Assembly: GCA_963719515.1 (NCBI GenBank) | Contig: CAVRCJ010000005.1 | Span: 64,001-128,000, forward strand | From: an uncultured cyanobacterium | Lineage (GTDB): Bacteria > Cyanobacteriota > Cyanobacteriia > CAKZMO01 | Length of the DNA: 64,000 nucleotides | Direction: 5' to 3' | Shown here: in pieces, positions 41,526-45,476 of the stretch | Numbering within the stretch: position 1 is the stretch's first letter | How the letters are laid out: each line of letters begins with the position of its first letter | The notes under the pieces: model-generated | The model's database searches: none | The model's input: the letters and a program-made list of their open reading frames with translations, nothing else | Told to the model about the DNA's origin: nothing | Made by a program: the position numbers and the translations under genes

Positions 41526-41540
41526 GTTTCAATCCCCTTG
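41526..41540 (-). repeat. detached half of the trailer CRISPR repeat of array 1
   Basis: GTTTCAATCCCCTTG joined to 43996-44016 rebuilds a 36-bp repeat. Confidence 0.85.
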
Positions 41541-42570
41541 TATGTTTAGAAAAGGAGCGGTAGACCAACGTCCTCTAGTTCGTGATGGTCTCCATCATAG
41601 TTCGACCGTAAGCACGGCTCACCGCTCCTATCCATTCTCTGAGAACTCGAACAAAGTGCCTACGGCAGGGCAAAGCCCAACGCCAGGTTCCTTCATAGAG
41701 ACCGTATCGCGCAAGACTGAGTGCAGAGCATGGAGTTAAACTAACCATCAGCATCATACCAACATTCATGGCTGCAGATAAATCAAAGCAATCCTATAAC
41801 TGGATAGGCATCGACGTCAGCAAAGACTCTCTCGATCTCTATGACCTAAGCAAACAACACTACGCTCGCTACAGTAACAGTACAGAAGGGATAGAGGCGA
41901 TCGCCGATAGACTCCTCAAACAAGAGAACATTGCAGTGGTTTGTGAGGCGAGCGGTGGCTATGAGTGGCCGATGGCACTTGCTTTGCACGAGGCTGGATT
42001 GCGGGTAAGCGTGGTGAACCCTCGTCCAGTGCGAGACCTCGCGAAAGGAATGGGCAAGCTGGCCAAGACTGATGCTCTCGATGCCCAAATGATTGCCACC
42101 TATGGCCAGGTGACGCAGCCAGCAGAAACGGTGTTTGCCTCGGAAGCGGCAGAAGAACTCAAAGCGTGGGTCACCCGCCGTCAGCAATTGGTGGAGATGC
42201 TGAGCGCGGAAAAGAACCGGCGTAAGCGTCTACGTGGTCCCAAGCGCGACGATGTCGATGAGCACATCGCGTGGTTGGGTGGCCGCATCAAGCAGATAGA
42301 CGAAAAGATAAAAGAACTCAGCGAGTCAAGGGCCGAGTGGGCCGAGCGTAAGGCCATTCTTGAGAGCCCTAAGGGCATCGGTCCTGTGATCTCCTCTAGC
42401 TTGTTGGTGCTGTTGCCAGAGCTAGGCCAGCTCAACCGGCGGAAGATTGCTGCGCTGGCAGGGGTGGCACCGTTCAACCGCGACAGCGGCCAGTTTCGAG
42501 GGCAGCGCAGAATTTGGGGTGGCCGCGGTGCGGTACGCTCTTTGCTTTACCTAGCGACGCTGTCTACATT

Positions 42571-43624
42571 AAACATTATCGGAAATAAGGATGGGCATAG
42601 AATTCAGATACAGGAATTGAGGATCGCCATGAAGATAAACTACGAGGAGCTTCGAAATAAGCCACGCATACTGCAAGGCCTGACGGGGCTGAGGCAGAGG
42701 GAGTTTGAGGCGCTACTGGTGAGCTTTGAAGCAGCATGGGCAACGTTCGTTCGGCAGAGGTCTGAGCGAGAAGGGCGTCAACGGGGCTACGGTGGTGGTC
42801 GTCGAGCCAACCTGAGAACGCTGGCGAATCAGCAGCTGTTCATCTTGGTCTATTTTCGCCTCTATCCGACCCAGCAGGTACAGGGGTATCTATTCGGCCT
42901 GTCGCAGGCGCAGGCGAATATCTGGATACACCGGCTGACGGGGGTATTGAACCAGGCACTGGGCTACGAGAAGCAATTGCCAGAGCGAGAACCCGCCAAT
43001 TTAGAGGCGGTTCTCGACGCTTGTCCAAGCTTGGAGTTCATGGTTGATGGCACCGAGCGGCCCATCAACCGCCCAAAGGACAGAGGCGACCGTAAGACCT
43101 ACTACAGCGGCAAGAAAAAGGCGCACACGGTGAAGAACAACATCATCAGCGAACGGGGAGGTAAGGTCATCTTCTTGAGCGACACCTACGAGGGCAAGAA
43201 GCATGACAAGAAAATCGCCGAGGAGGAAGACTACCGGTTTCCTGAAGGAAGCGTGCTTTGGCAGGATACGGGGTTCCAAGGGTTCTCTCCTGCTGGGGTC
43301 ACCGTCAAACAACCCAAGAAGAAGCCGCGAGGGCAGCAGTTGACGGCTGAGGAAAAAGAGGCGAATCGCGCGATATCTCAAGTGCGCATTGAGGTGGAGC
43401 ATCACATCGGGGGCATCAAGCGCTGCCAGATTGTGGTGCAGAAGTTCCGTAACTGGGCTGCTCACTACATCGATGATGTGATGGAGACGGCTTGCGGTTT
43501 GCACAATTTCAGGCTGACCCATCGCCGTGCAGGGACAAGTGAGTCTCTGCAGGTTGTCTGAGAGCGGCGAGACTGAGGAGATTACTGTCACTCCGCCCAT
43601 CCTTCACTATTTCCGATAATGTCT
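42571..43624 (+). mobile_element. IS5-family (ISL2-like) element nested in IS110, 1054 bp
   Basis: TIRs AAACATTATCGGAAATA / TATTTCCGATAATGTCT; 3-bp TSD ATT. Family assignment is inferred. Confidence 0.85.
42629..43561 (+). CDS. DDE transposase (HTH plus DDE)
   Basis: [35 protein letters not shown]. Confidence 0.9.
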
Positions 43625-43995
43625 ATTGCACTCGAACCGTGCTATTCGAGCGTACTATCAGCATCTGCTTAAGCAGGGCAAGCCTAAGAAGGTGGCGATT
43701 GTCGCCTGTATGCGCAAGTTCTTGATTTGTCTCAATGCGATGGTGAAGACGAAGACGCTGTGGGATGACGACAAAGTGACGGCTCAGTTTCAGTCGAATT
43801 AGCAGCTTTCAGAGGCACAAACATACGGTAATTGTGACAGCTTAGCTTGAAGATGTGACAGTTCAGCCCTCAATTTGACGCGTGAGGAGGCTGATAGTTT
43901 GTGCTGCGCAAAATGCTTGGCTTGATGGCTCAAAGTTACTGTCGAGAACCTCGCTTTTTGCTTTGCGTCCCCTTGACGATAAACATAATCGCTTG

Positions 43996-45476
43996 CGGGG
44001 TGATGAGGTGCTGAACTCAAAACCTCGCAAAGGCTGAGGATACGTTCGCGAGTTTCAGTCCCCTCGCGGGGTGATGGAGTGCTGAACATGGCAGACTTAT
44101 TTGACTCAGCTACTGGCTGGAATTCATGTTTCAGTCCCCTCGCGGGGTGATGGAGTGCTGAACAGTCAAGATTGACGAAGTGAAAAAACGTCAAAGTCTT
44201 GTTTCAGTCCCCTCGCGGGGTGATGGAGTGCTGAACGGTTAATGCAGTCACGGGACACCTGTGACACTGAGGTTTCAGTCCCCTCGCGGGGTGATGGAGT
44301 GCTGAACACACAATGGACCGGCTAACGGTATCTAGGGAGTAGTTTTAGTCCCCTCGCGGGGTGATGGAGTGCTGAACGGGAATTCTTAAAAACTAGCAAT
44401 AACTCAGATTAAAGGTTTCAGTCCCCTCGCGGGGTGATGGAGTGCTGAACGTTTAAGGGCGAGTATTTTGCTGTTACTCCTGAAGTTTCAGTCCCCTCGC
44501 GGGGTGATGGAGTGCTGAACTCGTACTGGATAAGTTTGAAGTCAGCCTTCTGCAAAGCAGTTTCAGTCCCCTCGCGGGGTGATGGAGTGCTGAACTATCT
44601 AGAAGGCTCAAACGAGCCTAAGATTGGAGAAATGTTTCAGTCCCCTCGCGGGGTGATGGAGTGCTGAACTGTGCGACCAGCAGCGCTTACAACCCCACCC
44701 CCGTTAGTTTCAGTCCCCTCGCGGGGTGATGGAGTTCTGAACGTGATAGAACGGTATTCGGACAATTTTAGTCCAATTGGTTTCAGTCCCCTCGCGGGGT
44801 GATGGAGTGCTGAACACCCAAGGTTTACTCGATGATCGTGGATGAAGAGGTAAGTTTCAGTCCCCTCGCGGGGTGATGGAGTGCTGAACATCTGTGGCAC
44901 TTCGCCAATGACCAGGTGCCAGTCGGGTTTCAGTCCCCTCGCGGGGTGATGGAGTGCTGAACCTATCGAGACCTGAACTTTCCTGGGCTGGATCAAGAAA
45001 TGGTTTCAGTCCCCTCGCGGGGTGATGGAGTGCTGAACATCTACTGGGATGCCATGTTGTTTTAGGCAACCCGTTTAGTTTCAGTCCCCTCGCGGGGTGA
45101 TGGAGTGCTGAACTTCAAGTGCGGCAGCCAAGATTCTGGAAGGTGAGACAGGTTTCAGTCCCCTCGCGGGGTGATGGAGTGCTGAACACGAAATGTTACA
45201 GCGAATTCAATGGCAGTTAAAAGTTTCAGTCCCCTCGCGGGGTGATGGAGTGCTGAACTGAACCCAATGCAGGGAAACGACACTGTACTTGGTGGTTTCA
45301 GTCCCCTCGCGGGGTGATGGAGTGCTGAACGAAAAAGCCTGCTCCGGGGCCTGGAAGACAAGAAACAGTTTCAGTCCCCTCGCGGGGTGATGGAGTGCTG
45401 AACCGTAATGTTCAAGAGCCACTTAGAAAGCGTGGTACGAGTTTCAGTCCCCTCGCGGGGTGATGGAGTGCTGAAC
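43996..45476 (-). CRISPR. CRISPR array 1: 20 complete repeats plus the IS110-split trailer repeat, 20 spacers of 34-40 nt
   Basis: Repeat GTTCAGCACTCCATCACCCCGCGAGGGGACTGAAAC (minus strand). Leader on the right, degenerate repeat on the left. Confidence 0.98.

What the first reader, a model, noticed from the sequence alone, without database searches (positions are those of the whole stretch)
41526..44016. IS110 bridge-recombinase element inserted precisely into a CRISPR repeat
Seen: removing 41541-43995 joins GTTTCAATCCCCTTG to CGGGGTGATGAGGTGCTGAAC. This gives an exact 36-nt trailer repeat of array 1 with 4 mismatches to consensus. CTTG occurs at both junctions and there are subterminal IRs TATGTTTA/TAAACATA. 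Circularisation would create TTGACG-N17-TATGTT, a sigma70-like promoter firing into a structured ~225-nt left end (AGGAGCGGT...ACCGCTCCT stem). Known: IS110/IS1111 elements use a non-coding bridge/seek RNA to choose targets, often repeated palindromes such as REP or attC, and form junction promoters. Inference: this lineage may be programmed against the CRISPR repeat hairpin, using arrays as multi-copy landing pads and possibly disabling crRNA processing. I could not confidently identify guide segments by eye.
Basis: partly seen in the sequence, partly recalled or inferred. Interest (0 to 1): 0.88.

Follow-up and report, generated by a model that had tools for sequence, protein, structure and literature searches.

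The report
Guide-RNA jumping gene aimed at CRISPR repeats
A dead copy of an RNA-guided jumping gene (IS110 family) sits exactly in the hairpin loop of the last repeat of a cyanobacterial CRISPR array, and its own guide RNA, like that of relatives found in CRISPR repeats of ten other genomes, spells out that repeat.

Summary
Window 41526-41540 plus 43996-44016 are the two halves of one 36-nt CRISPR repeat, 4 mismatches from the consensus of the 20 intact repeats that follow.

Between the halves lies an IS110-group element. It has a left-end bridge RNA, an 8-bp subterminal inverted repeat, a junction promoter motif and a CT core.

This copy is dead. A second IS (IS5-type) splits its recombinase gene, and one donor guide carries a 25-nt insertion.

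[quoted passage not shown] CCGUAAG (41606-41612) pairs with CTTGCGG. Each pairing includes G·U-type wobbles.

The targeting is not chance. Ends of this IS lineage abut CRISPR-type repeats at the same position and in the same orientation in 11 of 401 sampled genomes of the class, across 9 or more distinct repeat types. In the host genome, 9 of 10 intact sites that fit the guides are CRISPR repeats.

Sister elements with altered guides sit in non-CRISPR repeats.

In this window the insertion is in the trailer-end repeat, so harm to crRNA production is unlikely. Elsewhere arrays have repeats on both sides.

The mechanism is known (IS621-type). IS110 copies in CRISPR arrays were noted in Thermoanaerobacter and Thermus. 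The guide-to-repeat match appears undescribed. Earlier scan notes describe IS110 bridge RNAs aimed at other repeats, none at CRISPR repeats.

The parts
41526..41538 (+). Left part of the split CRISPR repeat (left target GTTTCAATCCC plus core CT at 41537-41538)
   Evidence: sequence. Core CT is inferred from empty sites of the relative L017 and from the CT core of IS621 (PMC11208160, passages).
41539..41767 (+). Left end (LE) of the IS110 element. It carries the -10 box TATGTT (41541-41546), the subterminal IR TATGTTTA (41541-41548) and the bridge RNA gene (about 41553-41735).
41554..41628 (+). Bridge RNA stem-loop 1, the target-binding loop. Outer stem 41554-41561 / 41621-41628. Left target guide loop 41567-41577 (guide GUCCUCU, 41570-41576). 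Right target guide CCGUAAG, 41606-41612.
   Evidence: Consensus fold with 6 compensatory pairs. Guide loops aligned in 13 relatives. Left-flank covariation.
41631..41735 (+). Bridge RNA stem-loop 2, the donor-binding loop. Right donor guide GCAAG at 41711-41715. The left donor guide region 41676-41684 is degenerate and follows a ~25-nt insertion (about 41652-41676) that relatives lack.
   Evidence: Alignments. Relatives carry AAAUCGCC there, matching their right end AATCGC.
41768..42571 (+). Recombinase gene, first 268 codons (DEDD/RuvC-like domain, coiled coil, start of Tnp domain). D16, E60, D102, D105 and S240 align with the catalytic residues of IS621.
   Evidence: Residue roles from PMC11208158 (passages).
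42572..43623 (+). Nested IS5-type insertion sequence, 1052 bp. Imperfect terminal IRs, TA duplicated at 42570-42571 and 43624-43625, own transposase at 42629-43561. It breaks the IS110 recombinase gene.
   Evidence: Pfam DDE_Tnp_4 + HTH_Tnp_4. NCBIfam IS5 family at 76.5 bits, below the 140 cut-off. Reading frame is restored if 1054 nt are removed (own count). The uninterrupted junction is seen in G012.
43626..43802 (+). Recombinase gene, last 58 codons and stop
   Evidence: translation. 80% identical to the C-terminus of the G012 copy. L017 aligns across both parts.
43803..43993 (+). Right end (RE). It carries the -35 box TTGACG (43973-43978), the subterminal IR TAAACATA (43980-43987), the left donor ATAATCG (43985-43991) and core CT (43992-43993).
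   Evidence: The last ~33 nt are conserved in relatives.
43994..44016 (+). Right part of the split CRISPR repeat (right target TGCGGGG... to ...CTGAAC)
44017..45476 (-). CRISPR array 1: last spacer (44017-44051) and 20 intact 36-nt repeats. Read from the minus strand, with the leader at 45477 to about 45740.
   Evidence: repeats. (leader-side flank conserved among three arrays).

Best explanation
This is a defunct copy of an IS110-group insertion sequence whose lineage is programmed, through its bridge RNA, to integrate into the hairpin loop of a class of cyanobacterial CRISPR repeats (...[A/G]TCCC-CT-TGCGGGG...).

**How it works (by analogy with IS621).**
1. The excised circle joins RE to LE. 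This builds a sigma70-type promoter (TTGACG-17 nt-TATGTT) that transcribes the LE bridge RNA.
2. [quoted passage not shown] The 3' side (CCGUAAG) pairs with the top strand CT-TGCGG.
3. Stem-loop 2 pairs in the same way with the element's own junction (AATCG-CT-TGTAT).
4. The DEDD + Ser recombinase exchanges strands at the shared CT core. No target duplication results.

**This copy.** It landed in the trailer-end repeat of array 1. That is the only repeat of the array carrying T after the core, which the right guide needs. It was later killed by a nested IS5-type element, by a 25-nt insertion in the left donor guide, and probably by one or two transitions in the left target guide.

**Shown:** the anatomy, the guide-target complementarity, the covariation, and the recurrence in CRISPR repeats.

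**Inferred:** transcription from the junction promoter, the recombination chemistry, and the order of decay.
For: **1. Family.** Pfam, NCBIfam and PDB matches. All five IS621 catalytic residues align.

**2. RNA.**
- Two-stem-loop consensus fold with 41 pairs, 6 of them compensatory, from 3 sequences.
- The covariance model built from it finds 57 matches among the 94 sources searched, including the three it was built from.
- The left-guide loop covaries with the 9 nt left of the element: 43 unique pairs, 6.26 against 4.51 identities, 0 of 2000 permutations as high.

**3. Guides and targets in this clade.**

| Element | Left guide | Left target | Right guide | Right target |
|---|---|---|---|---|
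| Window | GUCCUCU | ATCCCCT, 7 pairs with 2 wobbles | CCGUAAG | CTTGCGG, 7 pairs with 1 wobble |
| G032 | CGUCCCCU | CGTCCCCT, 8 of 8 | not compared | not compared |
| G010 | AAUCCCCU | AATCCCCT of its own arrays, 8 of 8 | not compared | not compared |
| G663 | not compared | not compared | CCGCAAG | perfect complement of CTTGCGG |
| L017 | UUCCCCUC | its non-CRISPR site TTCCCCT-CTCGG | UCGAGAG | same site |

**4. Core and precise insertion.** Nine uninterrupted copies of L017's target repeat read ...(C)CCCT|CTCGGG... with nothing between the two flanks seen at the IS.

**5. Recurrence.** IS ends abut CRISPR-type repeats in G000, G010 (x2), G012, G029, G032, G529, G544, G551, G601, G663 (x3) and G664. 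That is 11 of the 401 genomes of the class sample. The right halves belong to at least 9 different repeat types, and all are cut at the same position and in the same orientation.

**6. No shared history.** There is no synteny between the window and the G010:C438 flanks.

**7. Host genome.** Of 10 intact sites fitting RTCCYCTTRCGG, 9 are repeats of a CRISPR array on contig C6.

**8. Metagenome contigs.** Close relatives occur without the nested IS. One has its RE joined to a C6-type repeat (single contigs, weak).
Against: - **Wobbles.** The window copy's guides match only through wobbles: two in the left guide and one in the right. The wobble-tolerant 12-nt pattern RYCCYCTTRYGG has 19 sites in the genome, about what chance gives by my estimate of ~20, so this copy's guides alone would not prove programming.
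- **G010:C438.** The right guide has one true mismatch (U opposite T) to its site.
- **Weaker left guides.** Several clade members match their flank at only 5-6 nt (G529, G544, G601, G663).
- **Single copy.** The element occurs once in its genome. No empty orthologous site was found in the four same-genus genomes.
- **Untested steps.** There is no RNA or recombination evidence of any kind. No Rfam family matched at E <= 1 in 39000-48000.
- **Sampling.** The 11 genomes were found by searching for the junction motif itself, so the count is a minimum and not an unbiased rate. Relatedness among the genomes was not corrected for.
Confidence: 0.85

Rival explanations
1. Broad hairpin targeting. The guides specify only a short GC hairpin motif (TCCCCT..CGGG), perhaps helped by recognition of target stem-loop structure. 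CRISPR repeats are just one of several repeat kinds that happen to carry it. On this view the lineage is not specialised on CRISPR arrays.
For: - The closest non-CRISPR relatives (L017, 58% identity; G575, 64%) sit in a dispersed ~130-nt repeat with a similar CCCCT-CTCGGGAGGGG hairpin. It has 51 copies in L017's genome.
- Left guides match only 5-8 nt.
- A preprint reports that a target stem-loop adds specificity for the IS110 element ISPpu10 (10.64898/2026.03.19.712850, abstract only).
Against: - The right guides differ between the two groups in step with their targets: UAAG/CAAG against CTTG/CTTA in one, GAGAG against CTCTC in the other.
- Within the CRISPR-associated group every junction I could read lies in a CRISPR-type repeat. 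Nine of 10 intact guide-fitting sites in the host genome are CRISPR repeats.
Confidence: 0.1
2. One old insertion, inherited. The IS entered a repeat once in an ancestor, and the observed cases are copies of that event passed on vertically or by duplication of arrays.
For: - Most CRISPR-associated copies are decayed: window, G010 x2, G029, G601, G663.
- The window and G010:C438 split repeats share A-T at position 7-8 and GATGAGG.
Against: - The right half-repeats belong to at least 9 different repeat types, each matching arrays of its own genome.
- Flanking genes differ.
- G544:C83 and G529:C44 carry intact recombinase genes.
- G032 and G551 have several near-identical LE junctions at different sites, with contigs breaking inside the IS.
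- Two 99.6% identical G663 copies sit in different loci.
Confidence: 0.03
3. Chance. An IS110 with some other programmed target happened to fall into a repeat.
For: The element is single-copy here, and its guides match only with wobbles.
Against: The four arrays make up about 2 kb of 5.28 Mb. The same nucleotide of the repeat is hit in 10 other genomes. The guide loops match the site.
Confidence: 0.02

Closest known systems
IS621 of Escherichia coli and its bridge RNA (IS110 group; Durrant et al. 2024, PMC11208160; Hiraizumi et al. 2024, PMC11208158; PDB 8wt6)
   Same: - Recombinase family and all five catalytic residues.
- Bridge RNA encoded in the left end with two internal-loop stem-loops.
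- The left guide has the sense of the top strand and includes the core. The right guide is complementary to the top strand.
- CT core.
- Promoter built at the RE-LE junction.
- A repeated palindromic sequence as natural target.

Sources: passages read; this work.
   Different: - About 30-35% sequence relatedness only (118.9 bits over 256 residues).
- An 8-bp subterminal inverted repeat, against the 2-3 bp that the paper gives for the IS110 group.
- Donor and target share CTTG, not just CT.
- The target is a CRISPR repeat hairpin loop.
- This copy is broken.
IS110-family copies splitting CRISPR arrays in Thermoanaerobacter (PMC4852346, 2016) and IS1000A/B of Thermus thermophilus, whose catalogued end is identical to CRISPR repeats (PMC6352166, 2019)
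   Same: IS110-family elements found repeatedly inside CRISPR arrays, including dimers and arrays cut into several pieces (passages read).
   Different: - Other phyla.
- Described before bridge RNAs were known, with no link made between a guide RNA and the repeat.
- I did not examine those sequences, so homology to this clade is untested.
ISPpu9 / ISPpu10 of Pseudomonas putida (IS110 family in REP-type stem-loops; PMC12288879, search listing only; 10.64898/2026.03.19.712850, abstract only)
   Same: Targets are multi-copy intergenic hairpins. The sister elements here (L017, G575) behave this way.
   Different: Here the hairpin is the CRISPR repeat, and the insertion point is in its loop.
IS1111 group (IS4321/IS5075, IS1111-attC; seekRNA, PMC11187229)
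   Same: A subterminal inverted repeat of 7 bp or more, and site-specific insertion into repeated structured sites.
   Different: In that group the guide RNA lies in the right end. Here the conserved structured RNA is in the left end. The only part of the RE that matched relatives was its last ~33 nt (24 in one locus).

Membership tests
IS110 family, IS110 group (bridge recombinase element) | Recombinase with a DEDD RuvC-like domain plus the IS110-specific Tnp domain | tested here: met
   PF01548 (E 1.6e-23) and PF02371 (E 3.5e-12). NF033542 at 171.6 bits against a cut-off of 140. IS621 8wt6 at E 2.3e-33.
IS110 family, IS110 group (bridge recombinase element) | Catalytic D, E, D, D and Ser | tested here: met
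   D16, E60, D102, D105 and S240 align with chain positions 13, 62, 104, 107 and 243 of 8wt6_A, that is D11, E60, D102, D105 and S241 in the paper's numbering (PMC11208158).
IS110 family, IS110 group (bridge recombinase element) | Uninterrupted recombinase gene (needed for an autonomous element) | tested here: not met
   The gene is split after codon 268 by a 1052-bp nested IS. This copy is a dead member. Relatives G544:C83, G529:C44 and L017 are intact.
IS110 family, IS110 group (bridge recombinase element) | Non-coding RNA in the left end with two internal-loop stem-loops | tested here: met
IS110 family, IS110 group (bridge recombinase element) | Target-binding loop pairs with both strands of the target around the core | tested here: met
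   Window: 7 + 7 pairs including 3 wobbles. Relatives reach 8 of 8. Covariation across 43 unique element-flank pairs.
IS110 family, IS110 group (bridge recombinase element) | Donor-binding loop pairs with the element's own RE-LE junction | tested here: inconclusive
   The right donor guide GCAAG fits CTTGT with one wobble. The left donor guide is AAAUCGCC in relatives, matching AATCGC. In the window it reads CCAACGCC after a 25-nt insertion.
IS110 family, IS110 group (bridge recombinase element) | CT core shared by donor and target, with no target-site duplication | tested here: met
   CT(TG) at both junctions. Empty sites of the L017 target repeat.
IS110 family, IS110 group (bridge recombinase element) | Promoter formed at the RE-LE junction of the circle | not testable with these tools
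   The motif is present and conserved: TTGAC[G/A/T], 17 nt, TATGTT. Neither transcription nor a circle was observed.
IS1111 group | Guide RNA in the right end, with long subterminal inverted repeats | tested here: not met
   The inverted repeat is 8 bp (met). The conserved structured RNA is in the left end, and the only part of the RE that matched relatives was its last ~33 nt, or 24 in one locus.
CRISPR array (target) | Regularly spaced identical repeats with unique spacers, a leader, and cas genes nearby | tested here: met
   20 repeats. Conserved leader-side flank. Cas10, Csm4, RAMP, Cas6 and TIR-SAVED genes at 51-64 kb.

The most novel reading that the evidence does not exclude
A cyanobacterial IS110 lineage is specialised on CRISPR repeats as a conserved, multi-copy and horizontally portable landing site. 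It tracks repeat variants by changing its guides. By splitting arrays from their leader, and by offering sites for bridge-RNA-mediated recombination between repeats, it would silence old spacers and drive array fission, deletion and shuffling. In effect it would be a mobile element that edits the host's immune memory.
Probability: 0.2. Interest if true: 0.8.

Novelty: new member of a known kind. Interest (0 to 1): 0.62.

Why it matters
Bridge-RNA elements are known to aim at repeated palindromes. Here the aim can be read directly, and the target is the host's own CRISPR repeat.

That turns an old anecdote (IS110 copies in CRISPR arrays) into a testable rule. The guide loops predict which repeat variants are hit. 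That fits this array, where only the variant last repeat carries the IS.

It also offers natural, matched guide-target pairs, with intact relatives in G544 and G529, for studying how bridge RNAs cope with a target that is itself a hairpin.

Finally, it raises the question of whether such elements shape the turnover of CRISPR arrays. For this particular copy the biological effect is probably nil, because it is dead and sits at the trailer end.

Tried and rejected
1. **'Always at the trailer end'.** After the first seven junctions, all with RE followed by an array, I thought internal insertions might be purged by repeat-repeat recombination. This was rejected as a rule. G551:C18 has 10 repeats to the left of the LE junction, G551:C24 has 2, G032:C5 at least 1 and G601 has 1. 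Draft contigs break inside the IS, so most cases cannot be placed. Only three cases are readable on both sides (window, G544:C83, G663 L168), and all three are trailer-terminal.

2. **Chimeric repeat made by recombination between two IS copies in different arrays.** Rejected. With a CT core, the TG after the core at the right junction belongs to the target, so the C6-like state continues into the right half.

3. **Guide in the right end.** TCCCCTTG at 43970-43977 looks like the left target. It overlaps the -35 box and is not conserved in L017, G663 or G029. I left it as a note.

4. **Rfam.** No family other than weak CRISPR-DR hits at E <= 1 in 39000-48000.

5. **Empty orthologous site.** The left flank finds only a 73% Uma2 paralogue in G004 and nothing in G001-G003.

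6. **G004 copy.** It is 96% identical but 5'-truncated on a contig end, with no informative flank.

7. **Repeat family-level protein search.** It added nothing.

8. **Many LE-junction-motif hits** (97 of 401 genomes) belong to other sublineages. Every locus I read from G503, G664, G590, G596, G537, G467, G022 and G054 was in a non-CRISPR site (20 regions fetched, 19 with a junction). The locus fetched for G713 held no junction. The other listed sites were not read.

9. **Public runs.** No RNA holder was listed, so nothing can be said on expression. Parts of the stretch without contig cover mean nothing.

10. **Literature.** Four searches found no paper that links bridge or seek RNA guides to CRISPR repeats. 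The seekRNA paper mentions CRISPR only in its references. Supplements of the Durrant paper, which list natural targets, were not opened and could bear on novelty.
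Full report
**1. What is in the sequence**

Window 41526-41540 reads GTTTCAATCCCCTTG, and 43996-44016 reads CGGGGTGATGAGGTGCTGAAC.
- Set side by side they form a 36-nt unit. It differs at four positions from GTTTCAGTCCCCTCGCGGGGTGATGGAGTGCTGAAC.
- That consensus occurs 20 times at 44052-45476 with at most one mismatch. 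None was expected in 100 shuffles.
- The distance to the first intact repeat is 35 nt, a normal spacer.
- A second array with a related repeat lies at 62095-62850 (11 repeats).
- The window also holds type III cas genes: Cas10 at 53799-56174, Csm4 and RAMP fragments, a TIR-SAVED protein at 60627-61856, and Cas6 from 63455.

The flank to the right of array 1 (from 45477) is 78-81% identical over 130-260 nt to the same-side flanks of array 2 and of a third array on contig C6. The left flanks are unrelated. The reverse complement of the repeat ends with the hairpin followed by 8 nt. So the leader is on the right and the array is read on the minus strand. The split repeat is the last one, at the trailer end.

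**2. The inserted element**

The 2.45 kb between the halves begin with a 227-nt non-coding left end.

*Recombinase gene.*
- An ORF follows whose first 268 codons match DEDD_Tnp_IS110 and Transposase_20.
- It also matches the NCBIfam model 'IS110 family RNA-guided transposase' at 171.6 bits, cut-off 140.
- The closest solved structures are IS621 (E 2.3e-33) and ISCro4.
- D16, E60, D102, D105 and S240 align with the IS621 residues that PMC11208158 names as catalytic.

*The break.*
- After codon 268 the gene is interrupted by a 1052-bp IS (42572-43623).
- That IS has imperfect terminal inverted repeats, a duplicated TA, and its own DDE_Tnp_4 / HTH_Tnp_4 transposase (42629-43561). It scores below the NCBIfam IS5 cut-off.
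- The last 58 codons of the IS110 gene resume at 43626. Removing 1054 nt restores the frame (my count).
- The G012 and L017 relatives read straight through this point.
- The 597-codon ORF 41768-43561 listed is therefore an accidental fusion.
- Both the IS110 element and the nested IS are single-copy in the 5.28-Mb assembly.

**3. Ends, core and promoter**
- CTTG stands at both junctions.
- An intact relative (L017; 58% identity in its best aligned segment; a cyanobacterial MAG) sits in a dispersed ~130-nt repeat that has 51 copies in its genome.
- Nine uninterrupted copies of that repeat read ...(C)CCCT|CTCGGGAGGGG... where the IS-bearing copy has ...CCCCT-TGTATG...AATCGCT-CTCGGG.
- Hence integration is precise, only CT is shared, and the core is CT. 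This matches the core reported for IS621 (PMC11208160, passages).
- With that core the native element is about 1.4 kb.
- TATGTTTA (41541-41548) and TAAACATA (43980-43987) form an 8-bp subterminal inverted repeat. In G663 both arms change together (TATGTTGA / TCAACATA).
- TTGACG (43973-43978) lies 17 nt from TATGTT across the junction. The TTGAC and the spacing are kept in the relatives' right ends.
- Transcription from this promoter was not tested.

**4. The bridge RNA and its guides**

*Structure.*
- The left ends of the window, G010:C438 and L017 align from the core onward.
- They give a consensus fold of two stem-loops with 41 pairs, 6 with compensatory changes.
- The window RNA alone folds at z = -3.7.
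- A covariance model built from the three found 57 matches among the 94 sources searched, the three it was built from included, in every case upstream of an IS110-type recombinase hit.

*Left target guide.*
- In IS621 the left target guide has the sense of the top strand of the left target plus core. The right target guide is complementary to the top strand of core plus right target.
- The 5' side of the internal loop of stem-loop 1 behaves as a left guide across the family.
- For 43 unique element-flank pairs, the best ungapped match between this loop and the 9 nt left of TGTAT averages 6.26 identities, against 4.51 +/- 0.16 after permuting partners. None of 2000 permutations reached the observed value.
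- Four of the 57 rows had no TGTAT motif. Duplicates and short loops were dropped.

*The window's guides.*
- The loop is AACGTCCTCTA (41567-41577). [quoted passage not shown]
- The 3' side holds CCGUAAG (41606-41612), which pairs with CTTGCGG through six Watson-Crick pairs and one U·G wobble.
- Against the consensus repeat of array 1 (CTCGCGG) the right guide has a true mismatch. Only the variant terminal repeat fits.

*Relatives.*
- G032, the closest left end: CGUCCCCU against CGTCCCCT of its repeat, 8 of 8.
- G010: AAUCCCCU against the AATCCCCT of its own arrays, 8 of 8.
- G663: right guide CCGCAAG, a perfect complement of CTTGCGG.
- L017: both guides are changed (UUCCCCUC, UCGAGAG) and fit its own site TTCCCCT-CTCGG.

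*Donor loop.*
- Stem-loop 2 carries GCAAG, which fits the donor CTTGT with one wobble.
- In relatives it carries AAAUCGCC, which fits the right end AATCGC.
- In the window that left donor guide reads CCAACGCC behind a 25-nt insertion. This is a second lesion of this copy.

**5. Is the CRISPR repeat the programmed target?**

*Own genome.*
- There are four arrays.
- One, on contig C6, has nine repeats GTTTCAATCCCCTT[G/A]CGGGGTA[T/C]TAGGTCATTGCGAC. Their first 20 nt equal those of the split repeat in eight of the nine.
- Of 10 intact genomic sites fitting RTCCYCTTRCGG, 9 are these repeats.
- The looser pattern RYCCYCTTRYGG has 19 sites, about the number I expect by chance.

*Other genomes.*
- G010:C438 carries a decayed homologue (63-70% identity) between GTTTATCCCCTT and TCGGGATGATGAGGGTTTGAAC. 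These are the halves of a degenerate copy of the repeat of that genome's own array, GTTTCAGTCCCCTTTCGGGGTRATGAGGKTTTGAAC.
- Its flanking genes are unrelated to the window's.

*Junction-motif search.* I searched 401 genomes of the class for the right junction AATCGCTTGCGGGG. It gave 33 hits in 28 genomes. The reversed control gave 7 hits by my count of the table, and I expect about 15 by chance.

| Right-junction hits | Genome and locus | What follows |
|---|---|---|
| With the IS right-end signature | Window | 20 repeats |
| | G012 | 12 repeats |
| | G032:C18 | 15 repeats |
| | G663 (1 of 3) | 24 repeats |
| | G544:C83 | 4 repeats |
| | G664:C559 | 23 repeats |
| | G010:C265 | 5 full repeats after the half |
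| | G663 (2 of 3) and G029 | single repeats |
| Without the signature | The remaining 21 hits | look like chance |

Sources.

*Left-junction search* (97 of 401 genomes, most from other sublineages). This added:
- G032:C5 and G032:C43;
- G551:C18, with 10 repeats to the left, and G551:C24;
- G529:C44, 69% identity, intact, in a solitary repeat;
- G601.

*Totals.*
- 11 of the 401 sampled genomes, the host included, hold at least one junction between this IS lineage and a CRISPR-type repeat.
- The right halves belong to at least nine repeat types.
- All junctions are at the same nucleotide and in the same orientation.
- This count comes from motif searches and is a minimum. Kinship among the genomes was not corrected for.

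*Relatives outside CRISPR repeats.* Those of 56-64% identity in G575, G544:C85, G521, G558 and G613, and the multi-copy sublineages in G503, G664, G590, G596 and G537, sit in other sites.

*Metagenome contigs* (single contigs at low depth, weak):
- close relatives without the nested IS;
- one right end joined to a C6-type repeat tail followed by the leader-side flank of the C6 array;
- the same half-repeat followed by a different spacer.

**6. Position in arrays and likely effect**
- In the three cases readable on both sides (window, G544:C83, G663), the IS is in the trailer-terminal repeat.
- In G551, G032 and G601, repeats lie on the other side of the IS. Many contigs end inside the IS. So internal or leader-side insertions exist, and the idea of an exclusive trailer position is not upheld.
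- For the window, the only unit affected is the last spacer. I infer little or no effect on crRNA supply.

**7. Comparison with what is known**
- The architecture is that of IS621-type bridge systems (PMC11208160, PMC11208158).
- It differs in the 8-bp subterminal repeat, the CTTG shared by donor and target, and the kind of target.
- IS110-family copies cutting CRISPR arrays were described in Thermoanaerobacter (PMC4852346, passage). The catalogued end of Thermus IS1000A/B is identical to CRISPR repeats (PMC6352166, passages). So the association is not new.
- In four full-text searches I found no paper that reads a bridge or seek RNA guide against a CRISPR repeat. Supplementary target tables were not opened.
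- Earlier notes of this scan describe IS110 bridge RNAs aimed at other host repeats, none at CRISPR repeats.

**8. Verdict**

This is a dead member of a known kind of element. It belongs to a cyanobacterial lineage whose guide RNA is set to a CRISPR repeat hairpin.

Noticed in passing
window 42572-43623: Nested IS5-type IS (DDE_Tnp_4 + HTH_Tnp_4) with TA duplication, single-copy in this genome. It reads in frame with the IS110 gene, giving a spurious 597-codon ORF at 41768-43561. Metagenome contigs show the same IS in other contexts at higher depth.
   Followed up: partly
G000 contig C6, about 210310-211540 and 213144-213760 (outside the window): Two more CRISPR arrays. One has 17 repeats identical to array 1. 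The other has 9 repeats GTTTCAATCCCCTT[G/A]CGGGGTA[T/C]TAGGTCATTGCGAC, which fit the dead element's guides but are unoccupied.
   Followed up: partly
window 43820-43860 and 43968-43979: The right end holds two direct TGTGACAG repeats, also seen in the G012 copy. It also holds TCCCCTTGAC, which repeats the left target plus core and overlaps the -35 box. This second motif is conserved in G010, G012 and G032 but not in L017, G663 or G029. Function unknown.
   Followed up: no
window 49112-53300 (minus strand): The type III cas genes downstream of Cas10 appear as many short ORFs of 100-175 codons. Csm4_C and RAMP matches are split over neighbouring frames, so the effector operon may be decayed.
   Followed up: no
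window 40765-41367 and 47621-48361: Two Uma2-family (putative restriction endonuclease) genes bracket array 1 and the IS.
   Followed up: no
window 59278-60410 and 60627-61856: A PIN_10 / DUF433-HTH gene pair (toxin-antitoxin-like) and a TIR-SAVED protein lie between the cas genes and array 2.
   Followed up: no
L017 and L108-L117 (genome G442): A dispersed ~130-nt repeat with 51 copies on both strands. It contains a tRNA-T-arm-like GGTTCGAACCC and is the target of the intact sister IS.
   Followed up: partly
L171 3543-3660 (G544:C83), L213 (G551:C94), L229 (G467:C140): Partial tandem duplications of the first 35-100 nt of the left end, including a second left-guide-like loop. They may be remnants of tandem (dimer) insertions like those reported in Thermoanaerobacter.
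   Followed up: no
L168 reverse strand 3600-3930 (G663): Left of the IS and its half-repeat lie tandem 12-nt (GCAGCGGATGGG) and 9-nt (GCCTCCGTT) repeats. The latter resembles part of the CRISPR repeat's 5' end.
   Followed up: no
L173 (G029:C23), right of the half-repeat: The single half-repeat is followed by a sequence resembling the flank of the G010:C477 array (…GGTCAACGAA.T.ATGCGGTTTTCAA). The array there may have shrunk to one repeat.
   Followed up: no
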